DNA from: a virus
Taxonomy: Duplodnaviria; Heunggongvirae; Uroviricota; Caudoviricetes
Strand: one strand, 5' to 3'
DNA: 64,000 nt
Virus record (IMG/VR): IMGVR_UViG_2861084961_000001
In this document: positions 10,112 through 54,470 of the stretch, piece by piece
How positions within the stretch are numbered: the first letter of the stretch is position 1
How the letters are laid out: each line of letters starts with the position of its first letter
Translations under genes and position numbers: made by a program
Notes under the pieces: generated by a model
Seen by the model: only the letters and a program-made list of their open reading frames with translations
The model's database searches: none
What the model was told of the DNA's origin: nothing

Positions 10112-10186
10112 GATGGTGTAGCTCAGCGGTAGAGCAGTTGGCTGTTAACCAACTGGTCGGTGGTTCGAATCCACCCACCATCGCCA
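10112..10186 (+). tRNA. tRNA-Asn (anticodon GTT)
   Basis: Cloverleaf by eye: acceptor gatggtg/caccatc, anticodon loop ctGTTaa, T-loop ggttcgaat, CCA end. Confidence 0.8.
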
Positions 10187-10191
10187 ATTTA

Positions 10192-10278
10192 GGGGAGTTA
10201 GTCCGTAGAGGTAGCGGTGTAGACTGTAAATCTACTGTCATGGCGACTCGGGTGGTTCGACTCCATCACTCCCCACCA
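10192..10278 (+). tRNA. tRNA-Tyr (anticodon GTA), type II with long variable arm
   Basis: Acceptor ggggagt/actcccc, anticodon loop ctGTAaa, T-loop ggttcgact, CCA end. Confidence 0.75.
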
Positions 10279-10282
10279 AATT

Positions 10283-10358
10283 GCCGGTTTAGCTCAGTTG
10301 GTAGAGCGCCTGCCTTGTAAGCAGGATGTCAGCGGTTCGAGTCCGTTAACCGGCACCA
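10283..10358 (+). tRNA. tRNA-Thr (anticodon TGT)
   Basis: Acceptor gccggtt/aaccggc, D-arm agctcagttggtagagc, anticodon stem cctgc/gcagg with loop ctTGTaa, CCA end. Confidence 0.75.
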
Positions 10359-10582
10359 ATACAACGATAAGATCATTACGGTTAATCGTCGTTCATGTGC
10401 ACAATGACTGGTCGAAAGGTAGTGATCTTACCGTTGTGGTGGATTCGCAGACTGATGCGATAGCTTTCTTGGATGTTAGGGAAATGCGGCCGCAAATCTT
10501 CCCTTTCGCGAGCGGTGATCGTCCGTAGTCCTAATTGGCTGCACCGTATGCCGGAGATTCAGTACCGGCCACCACAACGGCC

Positions 10583-10669
10583 GGAGAGTAGGGAGCATGG
10601 TGCTCAAGCTGTCTTGAAAACCGCCCCATTGCGCAAGCGATGATGGTTCGATTCCATTACTCTCCGCCA
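10583..10669 (+). tRNA. Type II tRNA-like gene, anticodon TGA (Ser?), imperfect stems
   Basis: Acceptor ggagagt/actctcc, loop ctTGAaa, T-loop ggttcgatt, CCA; anticodon stem and variable arm pair poorly, may be non-canonical or pseudo. Confidence 0.5.
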
Positions 10670-50421: not shown

Positions 50422-50569
50422 TAAGTAAGTGTTTACCTATCATTTTAAATCATGTATCTTATCGGCGTCAGGATGACAATGTGTCGGTAAGACACAGTTC
50501 CAGGATGGAACGAGAAAGGCGGCTGGCAATCGCCAGCCGCAACTCTTTCTGACACTGGATGGAGTCCAC

Positions 50570-51064
50570 ATGGCACGTCAAACCTATTTCACTTCTGCAA
50601 CTAAACGTCCTCGTTCTTTACGTCAAATTTTGGCCGAATTATTTAGCGGTCGTGTTATGTCACGTCTTGATGAACTAGAGACTACCGTTCGGTTGCTGAA
50701 TGAACGTTTAGATAATCAAGCGTCAGTTGTTGCGAACGTGGGGGCGATTGTTGCCTCTGGTTCTTCACGCGAAGCGAAAAGTACACGGCCTTTAGTGAAG
50801 GAGAAAAACAACAAGGACAGTTCGAATGGAAAATTTTCAAAGAAAGAGGCTGAAACCAATGGCCTACGTTCTCATTATAGTTTCACTGGCGACGGTAGCC
50901 GTTCCAGCCGGCCAGAGCCTTTTGATGCCGGATTCATCCATCACCACACCTTCGTCGACGACAATTACCACCACTCCAGTGGAGCGTCCTGTCACTCTGG
51001 ATGGGATGGCGGTGGATGCGATACCTCAAGTTCATCCAGTTACTCAGGATCATGCTGTGACTAA
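50570..51064 (+). CDS. Hypothetical Ser/His/Cys-rich protein (164 aa)
   Basis: ORF. Confidence 0.4.
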   Translation: MARQTYFTSATKRPRSLRQILAELFSGRVMSRLDELETTVRLLNERLDNQASVVANVGAIVASGSSREAKSTRPLVKEKNNKDSSNGKFSKKEAETNGLRSHYSFTGDGSRSSRPEPFDAGFIHHHTFVDDNYHHSSGASCHSGWDGGGCDTSSSSSYSGSCCD

Positions 51065-51073
51065 GGCGGTTGT

Positions 51074-51262
51074 ATGAACTGGTTTTCAAATCACTTTGGA
51101 AAAATTTGGCTGGCAATTCTTGCCCTCATGGCCGCCGGTTGGGTATCGAACATTATAAAACTTGTTTGCTCTGGCGATCTCCAGTTTCAGGCTGGCATGA
51201 CCTTGGCTCGTGTAGTTGGGATTTTTGTTTTTCCAGTTGGTTCGGTACTTGGTTATTTCTGA
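51074..51262 (+). CDS. Small membrane protein (62 aa)
   Basis: Two hydrophobic segments. Confidence 0.35.
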   Translation: MNWFSNHFGKIWLAILALMAAGWVSNIIKLVCSGDLQFQAGMTLARVVGIFVFPVGSVLGYF

Positions 51263-51355
51263 CGGCTGTTAGTGCATATGCATTGACCATCTCTGCGTAA
51301 GCAATTTATGTAATTAGAAAACAACTTGTTTTGACAAATAATAAAAGGAAAACAC

Positions 51356-51780
51356 ATGTTAGGTTTCTTCAAAAAGAAAACTCGTAAAGCTGTTATCGAA
51401 GTCAAAAAATGGAGAACCGTGATGCGGTTGAGGCCACCGTGTGGGGCGCGTACATGATCTCCTATGCCGACGGCACATGTGACGCAAAAGAAATTGCCAT
51501 TCTTGAGAAGACAATTGCAGCTCTGCCTGCGTTTTCTCCGTTTGCTGGTGAAATTGCCCAAATGAGCGCCAATATCCGTGCTCGTTACGAAGCGTCCCCT
51601 CGTTCTGCTAATGCACAGGCTATTCGTGAGCTGTCTGATATTGCGGGTACTCCAGAGGCGGTCGATGTTCTGTGTCTGTGCCTTGATATTGCCGATCAGG
51701 ACGGCATTGGTGAACAAGAAGAGCAGGCACTGAAAAAGATCGCCCAGGCGCTTCAGTTGTCACTGGATGCTTATCTCTAA
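51356..51780 (+). CDS. TerB-like domain protein, frame broken at A-run 51404-51409
   Basis: ATVWGAYMISYADGTCDAKEIAILEK...DQDGIGEQEEQALKKIAQAL resembles TerB; ATG 51356 follows conserved AAAAGGAAAACACATG. Confidence 0.5.
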
Positions 51781-52076
51781 TGCTTGAGAGATTCCGGCTT
51801 GTGATCGTCATTGCTCTTCTGGTGATGGCGGTGTTGGTGGATTTACGGGAAAGATGATGTCTGTCATTTCTGATGGCGTCCTCATTGGTTTGGCGATCTA
51901 CTTCGCTTATCCGTTAGTTCGTAAAGCAAAGTGTTAATGACAAGGGCCAAATGGCCCTTGTGTTTCGTTGACCGAAATAGAGAGTTTGCACCTTTACGTT
52001 TAGCTTGCTCCCCTTTTATGCCACATCACAATAAAGCCAATAAGAAAACAACTTGTTTAAGCATTAGGAAAAACAC

Positions 52077-52643
52077 ATGTGCAAGAAATGCAAAGCGATA
52101 GCTGATGAACAAAACGCCTTATTCGAAGAAATGGATGCTAATGAACTGGTCAAAATGTTAGCCATTCTTCGAGGAATAGAAGACGTTTCCATATTTGAGA
52201 GAGTGGTTACAGCACTTAATTTTGAGTCCACCTTTGAAGAGCCAACTCAGGTTGTAGCTTTAGCACATCATTTCGGTGTTCATTATCTTGCTGAAAAAGA
52301 GAGAGCTGATAAGTTGCAAGCGACTTTGGATATGGTGAGCGAGACTCAAGGAACTCATGACGGTAACAAAAGTGAGACGATTATTGCCAGCAAAGATCGT
52401 GAAATTGCCGGGCTTAAATCCTCTCTAACGATGTTGATGTCTGCAATTAACCTTATGTCTTCTAAAGCAGGTTATAAAATGCCATCACTAAACAGCGACG
52501 ATCCGATGGCCGTTCGCCAGCTTTTAGGTGCAATGGCCGACCAGCTCGACGACACAAAGAGTCGCCTTGAAGACATGATGCGGGAGCTCACGCATCGCCA
52601 TGACTTGAATAAGCAGCCACACAAAACGCAATACGCACTCTAA
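52077..52643 (+). CDS. Hypothetical coiled-coil protein (188 aa)
   Basis: Conserved start context. Confidence 0.45.
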   Translation: MCKKCKAIADEQNALFEEMDANELVKMLAILRGIEDVSIFERVVTALNFESTFEEPTQVVALAHHFGVHYLAEKERADKLQATLDMVSETQGTHDGNKSETIIASKDREIAGLKSSLTMLMSAINLMSSKAGYKMPSLNSDDPMAVRQLLGAMADQLDDTKSRLEDMMRELTHRHDLNKQPHKTQYAL

Positions 52644-52784: not shown

Positions 52785-54470
52785 ATGAATACAGCCCTTT
52801 CCATCATCGACGATGCCAGCTCAAACACGGCTATCGACTATCGTCAGGAAATGAATGTCATCCACGAAATCGTGGACGAGTGCGAGAAAGAGATCGCCTT
52901 CATGTATCAGGTACACGACTTCGTTTATGGCGACGAACGCCACAACATGATTAATCGCCTGCTGAGACTAAACCATCGACCAGATGAAGATCGCTCGCGT
53001 TTAAATCGAGGTTGGTTGGATAAAGTTGATCTGGAATGGGTGAAACAGAATATTTGGGCCGAGTACTGGAGGAAGGTCACGGACATGACTAACGTTTTGC
53101 TGATCATGCCAGCTTCCCGTCGAGATGAGTGGCGCGAGCAGTTTATAGAGGGCAAACAGGAAGTCATCAAAACTGACAGAACCGGCTACCAGATGAAGGT
53201 TAAAGAGTTCGTTGGTGTACCGGAGTTCAAAGCAGAAACGGTCATACCCACGATGCTTAATTTGCTGAATGACAGGCACAAATATCTCTCTGAGCGCGTG
53301 TATGGCTTGTTTAAGGCGCTGAGTCCTGCGCACAAGACAAATAAGACAAACGGTTTCAGCGAGCGTCTGATAATCGCTGACTGCATTTCTGATTTCTGGC
53401 GGGACAGCGTTAGCGTGAACTATCGCAAAGAGGACTACATCGACGATCTGCGTGTCTTGCTTCATTTCTTCGCGCACAAAGAATTTATTACCATCAACCG
53501 CACTGCTGAGGTGCTATCAGCTGCGTATCGGGCAAACGACTGCCAGACCGGTGACTGGATGAACGTCGATGGAAATCTGATGCGCGTGAAGATGTTCAAG
53601 AACGGCAACGTTCACTTTGAAATACATCCTGACGTGGCCTGGAAGTTGAATGAGGTGCTGGCTTACAGTATGCCTGCTGCAATCCCCGCGCCATGCCGAA
53701 CTGCGCCAAAAACACGGGCACCAAAGCAGTTCGGTTTAATCCAGAAGACGATCTCCGTGCCGGTTCGCACTGCGCTTCGTGACGGGCGATTGAGCAAAGA
53801 CAAAGGCGTATGGTACTTCTCTGATTCAGCTCTCCAGAAGTCGCAGGTGGAAGAGCTTGAGCGCACACTGAGCTTCATTGGCGGCGTGCAGGAGAAAAAG
53901 CACTGGCAGTTCCCGTATGACATCGGCCATACGCTAAATACGATTGTGGCTACCGGTTTAATACCGGATACAAAATCACACCAGTTCTACCCTACCCCAC
54001 GCTTGATTGCTGAGTACGTTGCCAGAGCCACTGAATTGAAGCCTGGTGAGAAGCTGCTTGAGCCTCACGCCGGACGTGGGGATCTTCTGGCCTATATTAA
54101 CGCCGATCTGGAAGATGTTACCTGCATAGAAATCGCACCTCTCTTCGCTGATATCCTGCGTGGAAAAGGGTATACGAACACGATTTGCTGCGACTTCATA
54201 AAGTGGTCTGAGGACAACGCAGGTTATCAGTTCGACAAAATCGTTATGAACCCGCCGTACTCGCTTGGTCGTCATAGGGAGCACACGATGGCTGCGCTGG
54301 GGCATCTGAAAGTCGGCGGGCGTCTTGTAGCAGTATTGCCGGGCACTGCGCCAATACTGGACTGGATGACGATGGATAATTACGTTTATGCCAGAGGGAA
54401 GTCGTTTACCAACGAGTTTGAAGACACAGGGATCACAGTCAGCGTATACGTTTTCAAACGCGTTAAATGA
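52785..54470 (+). CDS. Large protein with C-terminal N6-adenine DNA methyltransferase domain and ~400 aa N-terminal domain of unknown function
   Basis: FYPTP, LLEPHAGRGDLLAYI (SAM-binding) and VMNPPYS (catalytic) in C-terminal third; 561 aa intact ORF. Confidence 0.7.
   Translation: MNTALSIIDDASSNTAIDYRQEMNVIHEIVDECEKEIAFMYQVHDFVYGDERHNMINRLLRLNHRPDEDRSRLNRGWLDKVDLEWVKQNIWAEYWRKVTDMTNVLLIMPASRRDEWREQFIEGKQEVIKTDRTGYQMKVKEFVGVPEFKAETVIPTMLNLLNDRHKYLSERVYGLFKALSPAHKTNKTNGFSERLIIADCISDFWRDSVSVNYRKEDYIDDLRVLLHFFAHKEFITINRTAEVLSAAYRANDCQTGDWMNVDGNLMRVKMFKNGNVHFEIHPDVAWKLNEVLAYSMPAAIPAPCRTAPKTRAPKQFGLIQKTISVPVRTALRDGRLSKDKGVWYFSDSALQKSQVEELERTLSFIGGVQEKKHWQFPYDIGHTLNTIVATGLIPDTKSHQFYPTPRLIAEYVARATELKPGEKLLEPHAGRGDLLAYINADLEDVTCIEIAPLFADILRGKGYTNTICCDFIKWSEDNAGYQFDKIVMNPPYSLGRHREHTMAALGHLKVGGRLVAVLPGTAPILDWMTMDNYVYARGKSFTNEFEDTGITVSVYVFKRVK

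What the first reader, a model, noticed from the sequence alone, without database searches (positions are those of the whole stretch)
51356..51780. TerB-like domain protein
The protein resembles the TerB domain found in tellurite-resistance and stress or defence-associated operons, and it is preceded by a small membrane protein (51074-51262). TerB-like proteins in mobile elements are poorly understood.
Basis: partly seen in the sequence, partly recalled or inferred. Interest (0 to 1): 0.4.

Follow-up and report, generated by a model that had tools for sequence, protein, structure and literature searches.

The report
Phage P1-type tciA/tciB cassette, frameshifted
This is a copy of the already annotated phage P1-type gene pair tciA (a TerB-family protein) and tciB (a tiny membrane protein), carried by an SSU5-like phage-plasmid of E. 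coli; its broken reading frames are almost certainly sequencing errors, so the finding is ordinary, although nobody has yet tested what the pair does.

Summary

The frameshift is almost certainly an assembly artefact. The window has 30 one-base homopolymer deletions and 1 insertion against its nearest relative, and these break 14 of 49 genes, including repB and dnaE.

The conserved partner is not the upstream 62-aa membrane protein. This pairing recurs in P1, P7, D6, lambdoid prophages, N4-like phages and jumbo phages.

In phage SSU5 itself an anti-repressor gene occupies this slot, so tciAB is swappable cargo. No terC or terD is present, so tellurite resistance is unlikely. The pair probably acts at the inner membrane, but this has never been tested.

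The parts
51315..51342 (+). Candidate sigma-70 promoter (TAGAAA-16-AATAAT) in the 93-nt spacer upstream of tciA
   Evidence: Consensus scan, 9 of 12 matches. The evidence is weak, because promoter-like sites are not enriched over shuffled sequence in this region. DNA similarity to the Klebsiella SSU5-like elements begins at about 51317, which fits a cassette that carries its own promoter.
51356..51780 (+). tciA: TerB-family protein, 141 aa when intact. In the window it is split by a 1-nt deletion into a 33-aa ORF and a 123-aa ORF.
   Evidence: The repaired protein is identical to WP_000900261.1 and 78.7% identical to P1 TciA.
51404..51409 (+). A6 homopolymer, the site of the tciA frameshift (A7 in relatives)
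   Evidence: Alignment. The A6 allele has 0 exact matches in IMG/VR and the A7 allele has 21.
51780..51937 (+). tciB: DUF3927 two-segment membrane hairpin, 52 aa when intact. Its ATG overlaps the tciA stop (TAATG). In the window it is frameshifted by T4 to T3 at 51842-51844.
   Evidence: Pfam DUF3927 E=3.4e-12; phrog_1470 'TciB-like' E=1.4e-21. The repaired protein is 100% identical to P0271, which was seen on at least 1000 contigs.
51940..51961 (+). Intrinsic terminator-like hairpin (9 bp, 6 G-C pairs, followed by GTTTCGTT) that closes the cassette
   Evidence: Similarity to the SSU5 backbone resumes at 51991.
51074..51262 (+). Adjacent 62-aa small membrane protein named in the finding; judged to be backbone, not part of the tciAB module
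   Evidence: phrog_6006. Homologues occur without tciA in phage SSU5 and in Vibrio and Aeromonas phages.

Best explanation
SHOWN. The locus is the P1-type tciA-tciB cassette carried as cargo by an SSU5-like phage-plasmid of E. coli.
- tciA encodes a 141-aa, all-helical TerB-family protein with two 'A-D-G ... E' acidic loop motifs (A38-D39-G40...E46 and A113-D114-x-D116-G117...E122) and a conserved basic/aromatic N-terminus (MLGFFKKK).
- tciB starts on the stop codon of tciA (TAATG). It encodes a 52-aa hairpin of two hydrophobic segments with basic termini.
- A terminator follows, and there is no tciC.
- Both genes carry one-base homopolymer deletions in this window. These are best read as assembly errors, so the real element most likely expresses both proteins.

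INFERRED. The two genes are co-transcribed and translationally coupled. TciB inserts into the inner membrane with both ends in the cytoplasm (positive-inside rule). TciA, like ter-operon TerB, docks at the cytoplasmic face of the membrane, probably on TciB, and binds a divalent cation or small ligand through its acidic loops. The pair changes an inner-membrane property in a way that benefits the phage during both lysogeny and lytic growth. The most likely effect is exclusion of superinfecting phages and/or pore-forming colicins, matching the Phi and PacB phenotypes of ter operons. Tellurite resistance is the less likely effect, because TerC and TerD are absent.
For: Identity:
- Pfam TerB is matched above its cut-off.
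- PHROG 632 E=4.8e-63 and PHROG 1470 E=1.4e-21.
- 78.7% identity to P1 TciA over 141 aa.
- The family profile matches 2JXU TerB at E=2.7e-28, covering profile positions 5-143 and chain residues 11-150.
- G40, E46, A113, G117 and E122 are nearly invariant across 104 sequences.

Pairing:
- A DUF3927/TciB-like hairpin gene lies -8 to +3 nt from the tciA stop in 10 of 15 sampled phages, which range from 26 to 79% TciA identity. These include P1, P7, D6, Evi, N4-like Pollock, FSL SP-058 and UTK0002, Pantoea Nafs113, Pseudomonas ZY21 and Erwinia jumbo phage Asesino.
- The same pair sits in E. coli lambdoid prophages between Q/tRNAs and the holins.
- One gene call fuses the two (P0101).

Cargo status:
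- Phage SSU5 has ant in this slot, between the same flanking genes.
- In the Klebsiella SSU5-like phages nucleotide similarity to the 2.2-kb query is confined to window ~51317-51903, and in P1 to 51369-51785.

Artefact:
- 30 one-base homopolymer deletions against 1 insertion relative to pEC881_2. The control pair Cyrano/pEC881_2 has none.
- 14 of 49 CDS are frameshifted, including dnaE, repB, thyX and DHFR.
- All top relatives are 2 nt longer over this 2.2 kb.
- The A6 allele is absent from IMG/VR and the A7 allele is present 21 times.

Membrane role of TerB, from the literature:
- TerB is membrane-associated (Alekhina 2011, as cited in 10.1101/2022.05.11.491447).
- A TerC-TerB complex has been reported (PMC12054061).
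- Iyer and colleagues propose that phage-borne Ter genes serve in competition with superinfecting phages (PMC7824862).
Against: - No experiment has tested any TciA or TciB. The P1 annotation is 'by homology', and CRISPRi scores tciA, tciB and tciC as non-essential in P1 (PMC10695390).
- No PADLOC defence model matches either protein.
- 4 of the 15 sampled phages have a TciA-like gene with no small membrane gene after it, and one has an unrelated single-TM ORF. TciB is therefore not obligatory.
- Membrane topology, the TciA-TciB contact and metal binding are inferred only.
- The promoter call is weak.
- The pair also occurs in strictly lytic phages (N4-like and jumbo), so a role purely in lysogenic conversion cannot be the whole story.
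- Without the reads, I cannot fully exclude that the deletions are real.
Confidence: 0.55

Rival explanations
1. It is a genuine tellurite-resistance determinant, as the database name 'tellurite/colicin resistance protein' implies.
For: It is homologous over its full length to ter-operon TerB. The name is propagated in RefSeq, PHROGs and the P1 annotation.
Against: No terZ, terA, terC, terD, terE or terF is annotated anywhere in the closest complete relative. The window is collinear with that relative, and the unmatched segments are at most about 1.1 kb and hold no TerC- or TerD-like ORFs. TerC-TerD is reported as the minimal functional unit (PMC12054061). The authors of phage PMBT3 reached the same conclusion for a lone phage terB (PMC8421299).
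Confidence: 0.05
2. The frameshifts are real, and tciA and tciB are decaying pseudogenes in this particular element.
For: The sequence as given carries both deletions. Nearly half of P1 subgroup 1 phage-plasmids have lost tciABC (PMC9603915), so loss is tolerated.
Against: The same kind of one-base homopolymer deletion hits 14 of 49 genes, including the replication initiator and the DNA polymerase. The bias is 30 deletions to 1 insertion, and a control pair shows none. The A6 allele is found nowhere in IMG/VR. Outside the two deletions the tciA-tciB stretch (window 51356-51937) differs from pEC881_2 at a single base, near the end of tciB.
Confidence: 0.07
3. TciA/TciB is a minimal defence or counter-defence module. 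A TerB sensor would control a small membrane effector that depolarises or permeabilises the membrane, as an abortive-infection or exclusion device. Alternatively, it would act as a decoy against host TerB-based systems such as Bunzi, Shango or Dionysus.
For: TerB-domain proteins are components of the validated defence systems Bunzi and Shango and Dionysus, in which a TerB-like protein works with a multi-TM pore-forming protein. The tight tciA-tciB coupling and conserved acidic residues in the TciB hairpin fit this idea. The pair also occurs in lytic phages.
Against: No PADLOC hit. There is no helicase, ATPase or MAEBL partner. TciB is much smaller than known pore-forming effectors. No toxicity or defence data exist.
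Confidence: 0.15
4. The pair modulates lysis timing as a holin or antiholin accessory.
For: In E. coli lambdoid prophages and in phage Evi, tciA-tciB lies between Q (plus tRNAs) and the holin/endolysin genes. TciB is a small two-segment membrane protein, like class II holins.
Against: In the window, and in P1, P7, D6, N4-like phages and jumbo phages, the pair is not next to lysis genes. The Q-to-S interval is a general cargo slot. Knock-down in P1 has no plating defect.
Confidence: 0.08

Closest known systems
Phage P1 TciA/TciB (tciABC genes of the ban operon region)
   Same: TciA is 78.7% identical over all 141 aa. The same DUF3927 gene follows with an overlapping stop and start. Both elements are phage-plasmids of E. 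coli.
   Different: There is no tciC; a terminator follows tciB. The genomic setting is different: the cassette sits between the rnhA/orf164/orf62 genes and orf188/DUF4942-methyltransferase of an SSU5-like siphovirus, with no adjacent tRNAs and no ban. Nucleotide similarity to P1 is limited to tciA.
TerB of the terZABCDEF operon (Klebsiella TerB, PDB 2JXU; Pfam PF05099)
   Same: Same family, length and helical fold. The family profile matches at E=2.7e-28 over the full length, and the duplicated acidic D-G...E motifs are present.
   Different: It stands alone, with no TerC, TerD, TerZ, TerA or TerE. It is paired with a 52-aa hairpin protein rather than followed by the multi-TM TerC. The family is small: 188 representatives at 50% clustering with E<=1e-3 among 1.84 billion proteins.
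TerB-domain anti-phage systems Bunzi, Shango and Dionysus
   Same: They contain a TerB-type domain working with membrane components, and 'membrane surveillance' has been proposed for them.
   Different: No PADLOC model matches. The partner genes are different, and this module is encoded by phages, including lytic ones, rather than by host defence islands.
Identical annotated genes in E. coli SSU5-like plasmids (e.g. pEC881_2 WP_000900261.1 / WP_000893470.1; phage Cyrano 'P1 TciA-like' / 'P1 TciB-like')
   Same: 99.5% nucleotide identity over 2.2 kb. The repaired proteins are identical to those of pEC881_2. The region occurs in 229 of 5426 complete E. coli genomes, almost always on plasmids.
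   Different: Only the two one-base homopolymer deletions in the window.

Membership tests
TerB family (Pfam PF05099) | Match to the family HMM above the curated gathering score | tested here: met
   27.5 bits for the uncorrected ORF and 31.5 bits for the repaired protein, against a cut-off of 24.4. All 104 aligned relatives match TerB.
TerB family (Pfam PF05099) | Full-length homology to an experimentally solved ter-operon TerB | tested here: met
   Profile A2 matches 2JXU_A at E=2.7e-28, profile positions 5-143 against chain residues 11-150. A single-sequence search found nothing.
TerB family (Pfam PF05099) | All-alpha TerB fold | tested here: met
TerB family (Pfam PF05099) | Duplicated acidic loop motif (A-D-G ... 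E), thought to bind a metal or ligand | tested here: met
   G40, E46, A113, G117 and E122 are conserved in at least 90% of 104 sequences. D39, G40, E46 and E122 are invariant in the 10-sequence set. Binding itself cannot be tested here.
Phage P1 Tci module (tciA-tciB-tciC) | TciA orthologue | tested here: met
   78.7% identity, 100% coverage, E=1e-69.
Phage P1 Tci module (tciA-tciB-tciC) | DUF3927 (TciB) gene immediately downstream and translationally coupled | tested here: met
   TAATG overlap at 51778-51782. Pfam DUF3927 E=3.4e-12 and phrog_1470 E=1.4e-21 after repair of the T-run.
Phage P1 Tci module (tciA-tciB-tciC) | Third small gene, tciC (35-aa single-TM protein) | tested here: not met
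   A terminator lies at 51940-51961. The only ORF of at least 30 aa that starts between the tciB stop and 52077 (51931-52101, 56 aa) is not hydrophobic. P1, P7 and D6 do have tciC.
Phage P1 Tci module (tciA-tciB-tciC) | Intact reading frames | tested here: not met
   Both genes carry a 1-nt homopolymer deletion in the window as given. This is judged an assembly artefact.
ter operon tellurite-resistance determinant (terZABCDEF) | Presence of terC and terD (the reported minimal functional unit) next to terB | tested here: not met
   No such genes flank the locus or occur anywhere in the collinear complete relative.
ter operon tellurite-resistance determinant (terZABCDEF) | Tellurite resistance, phage inhibition or colicin resistance phenotype | not testable with these tools
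   No experimental report for any TciA was found.
TerB-containing defence systems (Bunzi, Shango, Dionysus) | Match to the system's protein models and presence of its partner genes | tested here: not met
   No PADLOC hit for TciA, TciB or their neighbours at E<=0.1, apart from two sub-threshold chance-level hits on orf188. The neighbours are backbone phage genes. Dionysus post-dates the PADLOC version used, so it was compared by architecture only.

The most novel reading that the evidence does not exclude
TciA-TciB may be a self-contained two-protein phage module that moves as a cassette between very different phages: P1-, D6- and SSU5-like phage-plasmids, lambdoid prophages, N4-like podophages and Erwinia jumbo phages. 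A TerB-fold ligand or cation sensor would be translationally coupled to a DUF3927 membrane hairpin. The module would act during infection, either to exclude competing phages and colicins or to neutralise host membrane-based (TerB-type) defences. That would make it a minimal, phage-encoded counterpart of the TerB defence systems.
Probability: 0.25. Interest if true: 0.5.

Novelty: already known. Interest (0 to 1): 0.15.

Why it matters
For this window it matters mainly as quality control. The apparent pseudogene is one symptom of systematic homopolymer under-calling that breaks about a third of the genes in the aligned 40 kb.

Biologically, TciA/TciB is a widespread phage cargo pair. It is present in about 4% of complete E. 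coli genomes through SSU5-like plasmids alone. Its name, 'tellurite/colicin resistance', has never been tested and is probably misleading. A simple expression experiment could settle whether it is an exclusion or defence function. That question gains some relevance now that TerB domains appear in validated anti-phage systems.

Tried and rejected
- Single-sequence phmmer against PDB found only chance hits. The TerB link needed a family profile.
- NCBIfam and PADLOC gave no usable hits.
I sampled 15 phage loci by hand instead.
- The search for homologous proteins with the 52-aa TciB returned only near-identical proteins. The reciprocal question, whether DUF3927 ever occurs without TerB, was therefore not answered.
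- The literature search for 'TciA' as a whole word was swamped by The Cancer Imaging Archive.
- Anantharaman et al. 2012 (PMC4104200) and the P1 genome paper (PMC523184) are not held. Statements about them rest on citations in other papers and on my own knowledge.
- I rejected programmed frameshifting or transcriptional slippage at the A-run. Relatives are in frame with A7, the A6 form is unique to this window, and identical errors are scattered over the window.
- I rejected the upstream 62-aa protein as a functional partner.
- I ran no further search on the TciA-TciB fusion call P0101, because the tool reports no inter-domain confidence.

Full report
**1. What is at the coordinates**

On the + strand an AAGGA ribosome-binding site (51345-49) precedes an ATG at 51356, and a TAA stop ends at 51780. 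That is 425 nt, which is not a multiple of three. The ORF listing accordingly shows a 33-aa ORF (51356-51457) and, in another frame, a 123-aa ORF (51409-51780).

Aligning 51300-51960 with the two best-annotated relatives, E. coli plasmid pEC881_2 and phage Cyrano, shows exactly two differences in length. An A7 run is A6 in the window (51404-51409), and a T4 run is T3 (51842-51844). Restoring the A gives a 141-aa protein identical to the pEC881_2 product WP_000900261.1, 'tellurite/colicin resistance protein'.

**2. Is it TerB?**

Yes, on four lines of evidence.
- The uncorrected ORF scores 27.5 bits on Pfam TerB (cut-off 24.4). The repaired protein scores 31.5 bits.
- PHROG 632 'tellurite resistance' matches end to end at E=4.8e-63.
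- An exhaustive HMMER search of 1.84 billion representatives found a small family: 188 proteins at E<=1e-3, nearly all stand-alone and 140-150 aa long. All 104 aligned members match Pfam TerB. The family profile matches the NMR structure of Klebsiella ter-operon TerB (2JXU) at E=2.7e-28 over essentially the full length.

Conserved positions form two A-D-G...E loop motifs between helices 1 and 2 and between helices 5 and 6. A conserved M-[LF]-G-x-F-x-K-K N-terminus is also present.

**3. More precisely, it is P1 TciA**

tblastn against phage genomes gives 78.7% identity over all 141 residues to phage P1 TciA. More distant homologues (26-63% identity) occur in P7, D6, N4-like podophages, Pseudomonas, Pantoea and Vibrio phages and Erwinia jumbo phages. 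The P1 record states that the function is assigned 'by homology'.

**4. The real partner is downstream**

The tciA stop overlaps an ATG (TAATG, 51778-82). After repair of the T-run, that ATG opens a 52-aa protein that matches:
- Pfam DUF3927 (E=3.4e-12);
- PHROG 1470 'TciB-like' (E=1.4e-21);
- a protein seen on at least 1000 contigs, at 100% identity.

The protein has two hydrophobic segments and basic ends. A terminator-like hairpin follows at 51940-61, and there is no tciC.

I sampled 15 phage loci spanning 26-79% TciA identity.
- Ten carry a TciB-like hairpin gene starting -8 to +3 nt from the tciA stop. This set includes the lytic N4-like phages and the jumbo phage Asesino.
- One carries an unrelated single-TM ORF.
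- Four carry nothing comparable.

E. coli lambdoid prophages carry the same pair between Q/tRNAs and the holins. One gene call even fuses the two proteins.

**5. The upstream small membrane protein is backbone**

ORF 51074-51262 is real: 62 aa, two hydrophobic stretches, phrog_6006. Homologues occur without any tciA in phage SSU5 and in Vibrio and Aeromonas phages.

In SSU5 the gene order is RNase H, orf164, orf62, ant, orf190, methyltransferase. An anti-repressor gene therefore sits where this element has tciAB. DNA similarity to SSU5 resumes at 51991, after weak similarity that ends at 51082. In the Klebsiella SSU5-like phages found, nucleotide similarity is confined to about 51317-51903. 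So tciAB, with its own spacer and terminator, is a swappable cargo cassette.

**6. The frameshifts**

Over 41.6 kb aligned to pEC881_2, the window has 30 one-base deletions in homopolymers of at least 3 bases and a single such insertion. A more divergent control pair (Cyrano against pEC881_2) has none.

The deletions put net frameshifts into 14 of 49 annotated genes, including dnaE, repB, thyX, DHFR and an exonuclease. They put three separated deletions into each of three further genes. All ten listed relatives are longer than the window over 30000-54000, eight of them by 19-40 nt. All twelve listed E. coli records are 2 nt longer over this 2.2 kb. The A6 allele has 0 exact matches in IMG/VR and the A7 allele has 21.

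This is the signature of homopolymer under-calling in the assembly. It does not look like gene decay or programmed frameshifting.

**7. Context**

The window is collinear with a 109-kb non-mobilizable phage-plasmid that carries siphovirus structural genes and a large replication and nucleotide-metabolism block. No terC, terD, terZ, terA, terE, terF or telA is annotated in that relative. The few unmatched window segments are at most about 1.1 kb and contain nothing resembling them. About 4% of complete E. coli genomes (229 of 5426) carry this region, almost always on plasmids.

**8. Mechanism**

Shown:
- the TerB fold and its motifs;
- the translationally coupled hairpin partner;
- cassette mobility across temperate and lytic phages;
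- the absence of other ter genes.

Taken from the literature:
- ter-operon TerB is membrane-associated and complexes with TerC;
- ter operons give tellurite resistance, phage inhibition and colicin resistance;
- TerC-TerD is reported as the minimal unit for tellurite resistance;
- lone phage terB genes are considered unlikely to confer tellurite resistance;
- phage Ter genes have been proposed to act against superinfecting phages;
- TerB domains occur in the validated defence systems Bunzi, Shango and Dionysus.

My inference is that TciB anchors or receives TciA at the cytoplasmic face of the inner membrane. TciA would sense or bind a cation or ligand, and the pair would alter a membrane property so as to exclude competing phages and colicins. 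I put identity at about 0.95 and this mechanism at about 0.35.

P1 tciA, tciB and tciC are non-essential for plaque formation, and nearly half of P1 subgroup 1 phage-plasmids lack the operon. Both facts fit an accessory role.

**9. Novelty and score**

The gene pair is already annotated under these names in P1 (YP_006540 and YP_006541), phage Cyrano, RefSeq plasmids and PHROGs. The window adds no new variant beyond likely sequencing errors. I rate it 'already known' and of low interest (0.15).

Some curiosity remains because the function is experimentally untested. The cassette's spread across unrelated phage lifestyles hints at a general infection-related role at the membrane.

Noticed in passing
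window 19188-59036 (for example 32728, 43489, 45044, 46913, 51404, 51842, 58672): The window has systematic one-base deletions in homopolymer runs relative to its closest relative: 30 deletions against 1 insertion. They frameshift 14 of 49 genes, including dnaE, repB, thyX, DHFR, an SPFH-domain gene and a 3'-5' exonuclease.
   Followed up: yes
window ~51263-51990; L043 (phage SSU5) 1990-2930: This is a variable cargo slot in SSU5-like phage-plasmids. SSU5 carries an anti-repressor (ant) gene exactly where this element carries tciA-tciB, between the conserved orf62 and orf188.
   Followed up: partly
L004 (P1), L010 (P7), L038 (D6), L046 (lambdoid prophage), L035 (Evi), L006 (Asesino), L008 (ZY21); window 10112-10669: In seven unrelated phage contexts, tciA-tciB cassettes lie within about 0.1-0.7 kb of phage tRNA genes. 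In this window the tRNA cluster (Asn, Tyr, Thr, Ser) is 41 kb away. Both may simply be cargo at the same hot spots.
   Followed up: partly
L046-L048 4001-5705 (E. coli chromosomal prophages): An 83%-identical TciA plus DUF3927 sits between antiterminator Q (plus four tRNAs) and the two holins and endolysin. This is the same slot that Stx toxin genes occupy in Stx phages.
   Followed up: partly
L009 1-1923 (Vibrio phage PhiImVa-1): An N4-like Vibrio phage carries TerB, TerC and a TciA-like TerB in a row, followed by a non-membrane 84-aa ORF instead of DUF3927. This hints that TerC can take the place of the small hairpin partner.
   Followed up: no
window 50570-51064: A 164-aa backbone protein (phrog_10411, unknown function) has a coiled-coil-like N-terminal half and a His/Cys/Ser/Gly-rich C-terminal tail (...HHHTFVDDNYHHSSGASCHSGWDGGGCDTSSSSSYSGSCCD). 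The tail could be a metal-binding or low-complexity region. The protein is conserved in SSU5.
   Followed up: no
L005 4001-4591 (P1-like contig from SRR28117464): A single gene call fuses TciA and TciB into one 196-aa protein (TerB + DUF3927). It could be a real fusion or an assembly error at the overlapping stop and start.
   Followed up: partly
window 50519-50540: A perfect 9-bp G+C-rich hairpin is flanked by T-rich tails on both strands. It looks like a bidirectional terminator, and it separates rnhA from the orf164-orf62 genes.
   Followed up: no
window 52785-54470: A 561-aa protein combines an N-terminal DUF4942 domain (E=1.7e-20) with a C-terminal region that gives only sub-threshold methyltransferase-like matches. 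The SSU5 homologue is annotated as a DNA methyltransferase.
   Followed up: no
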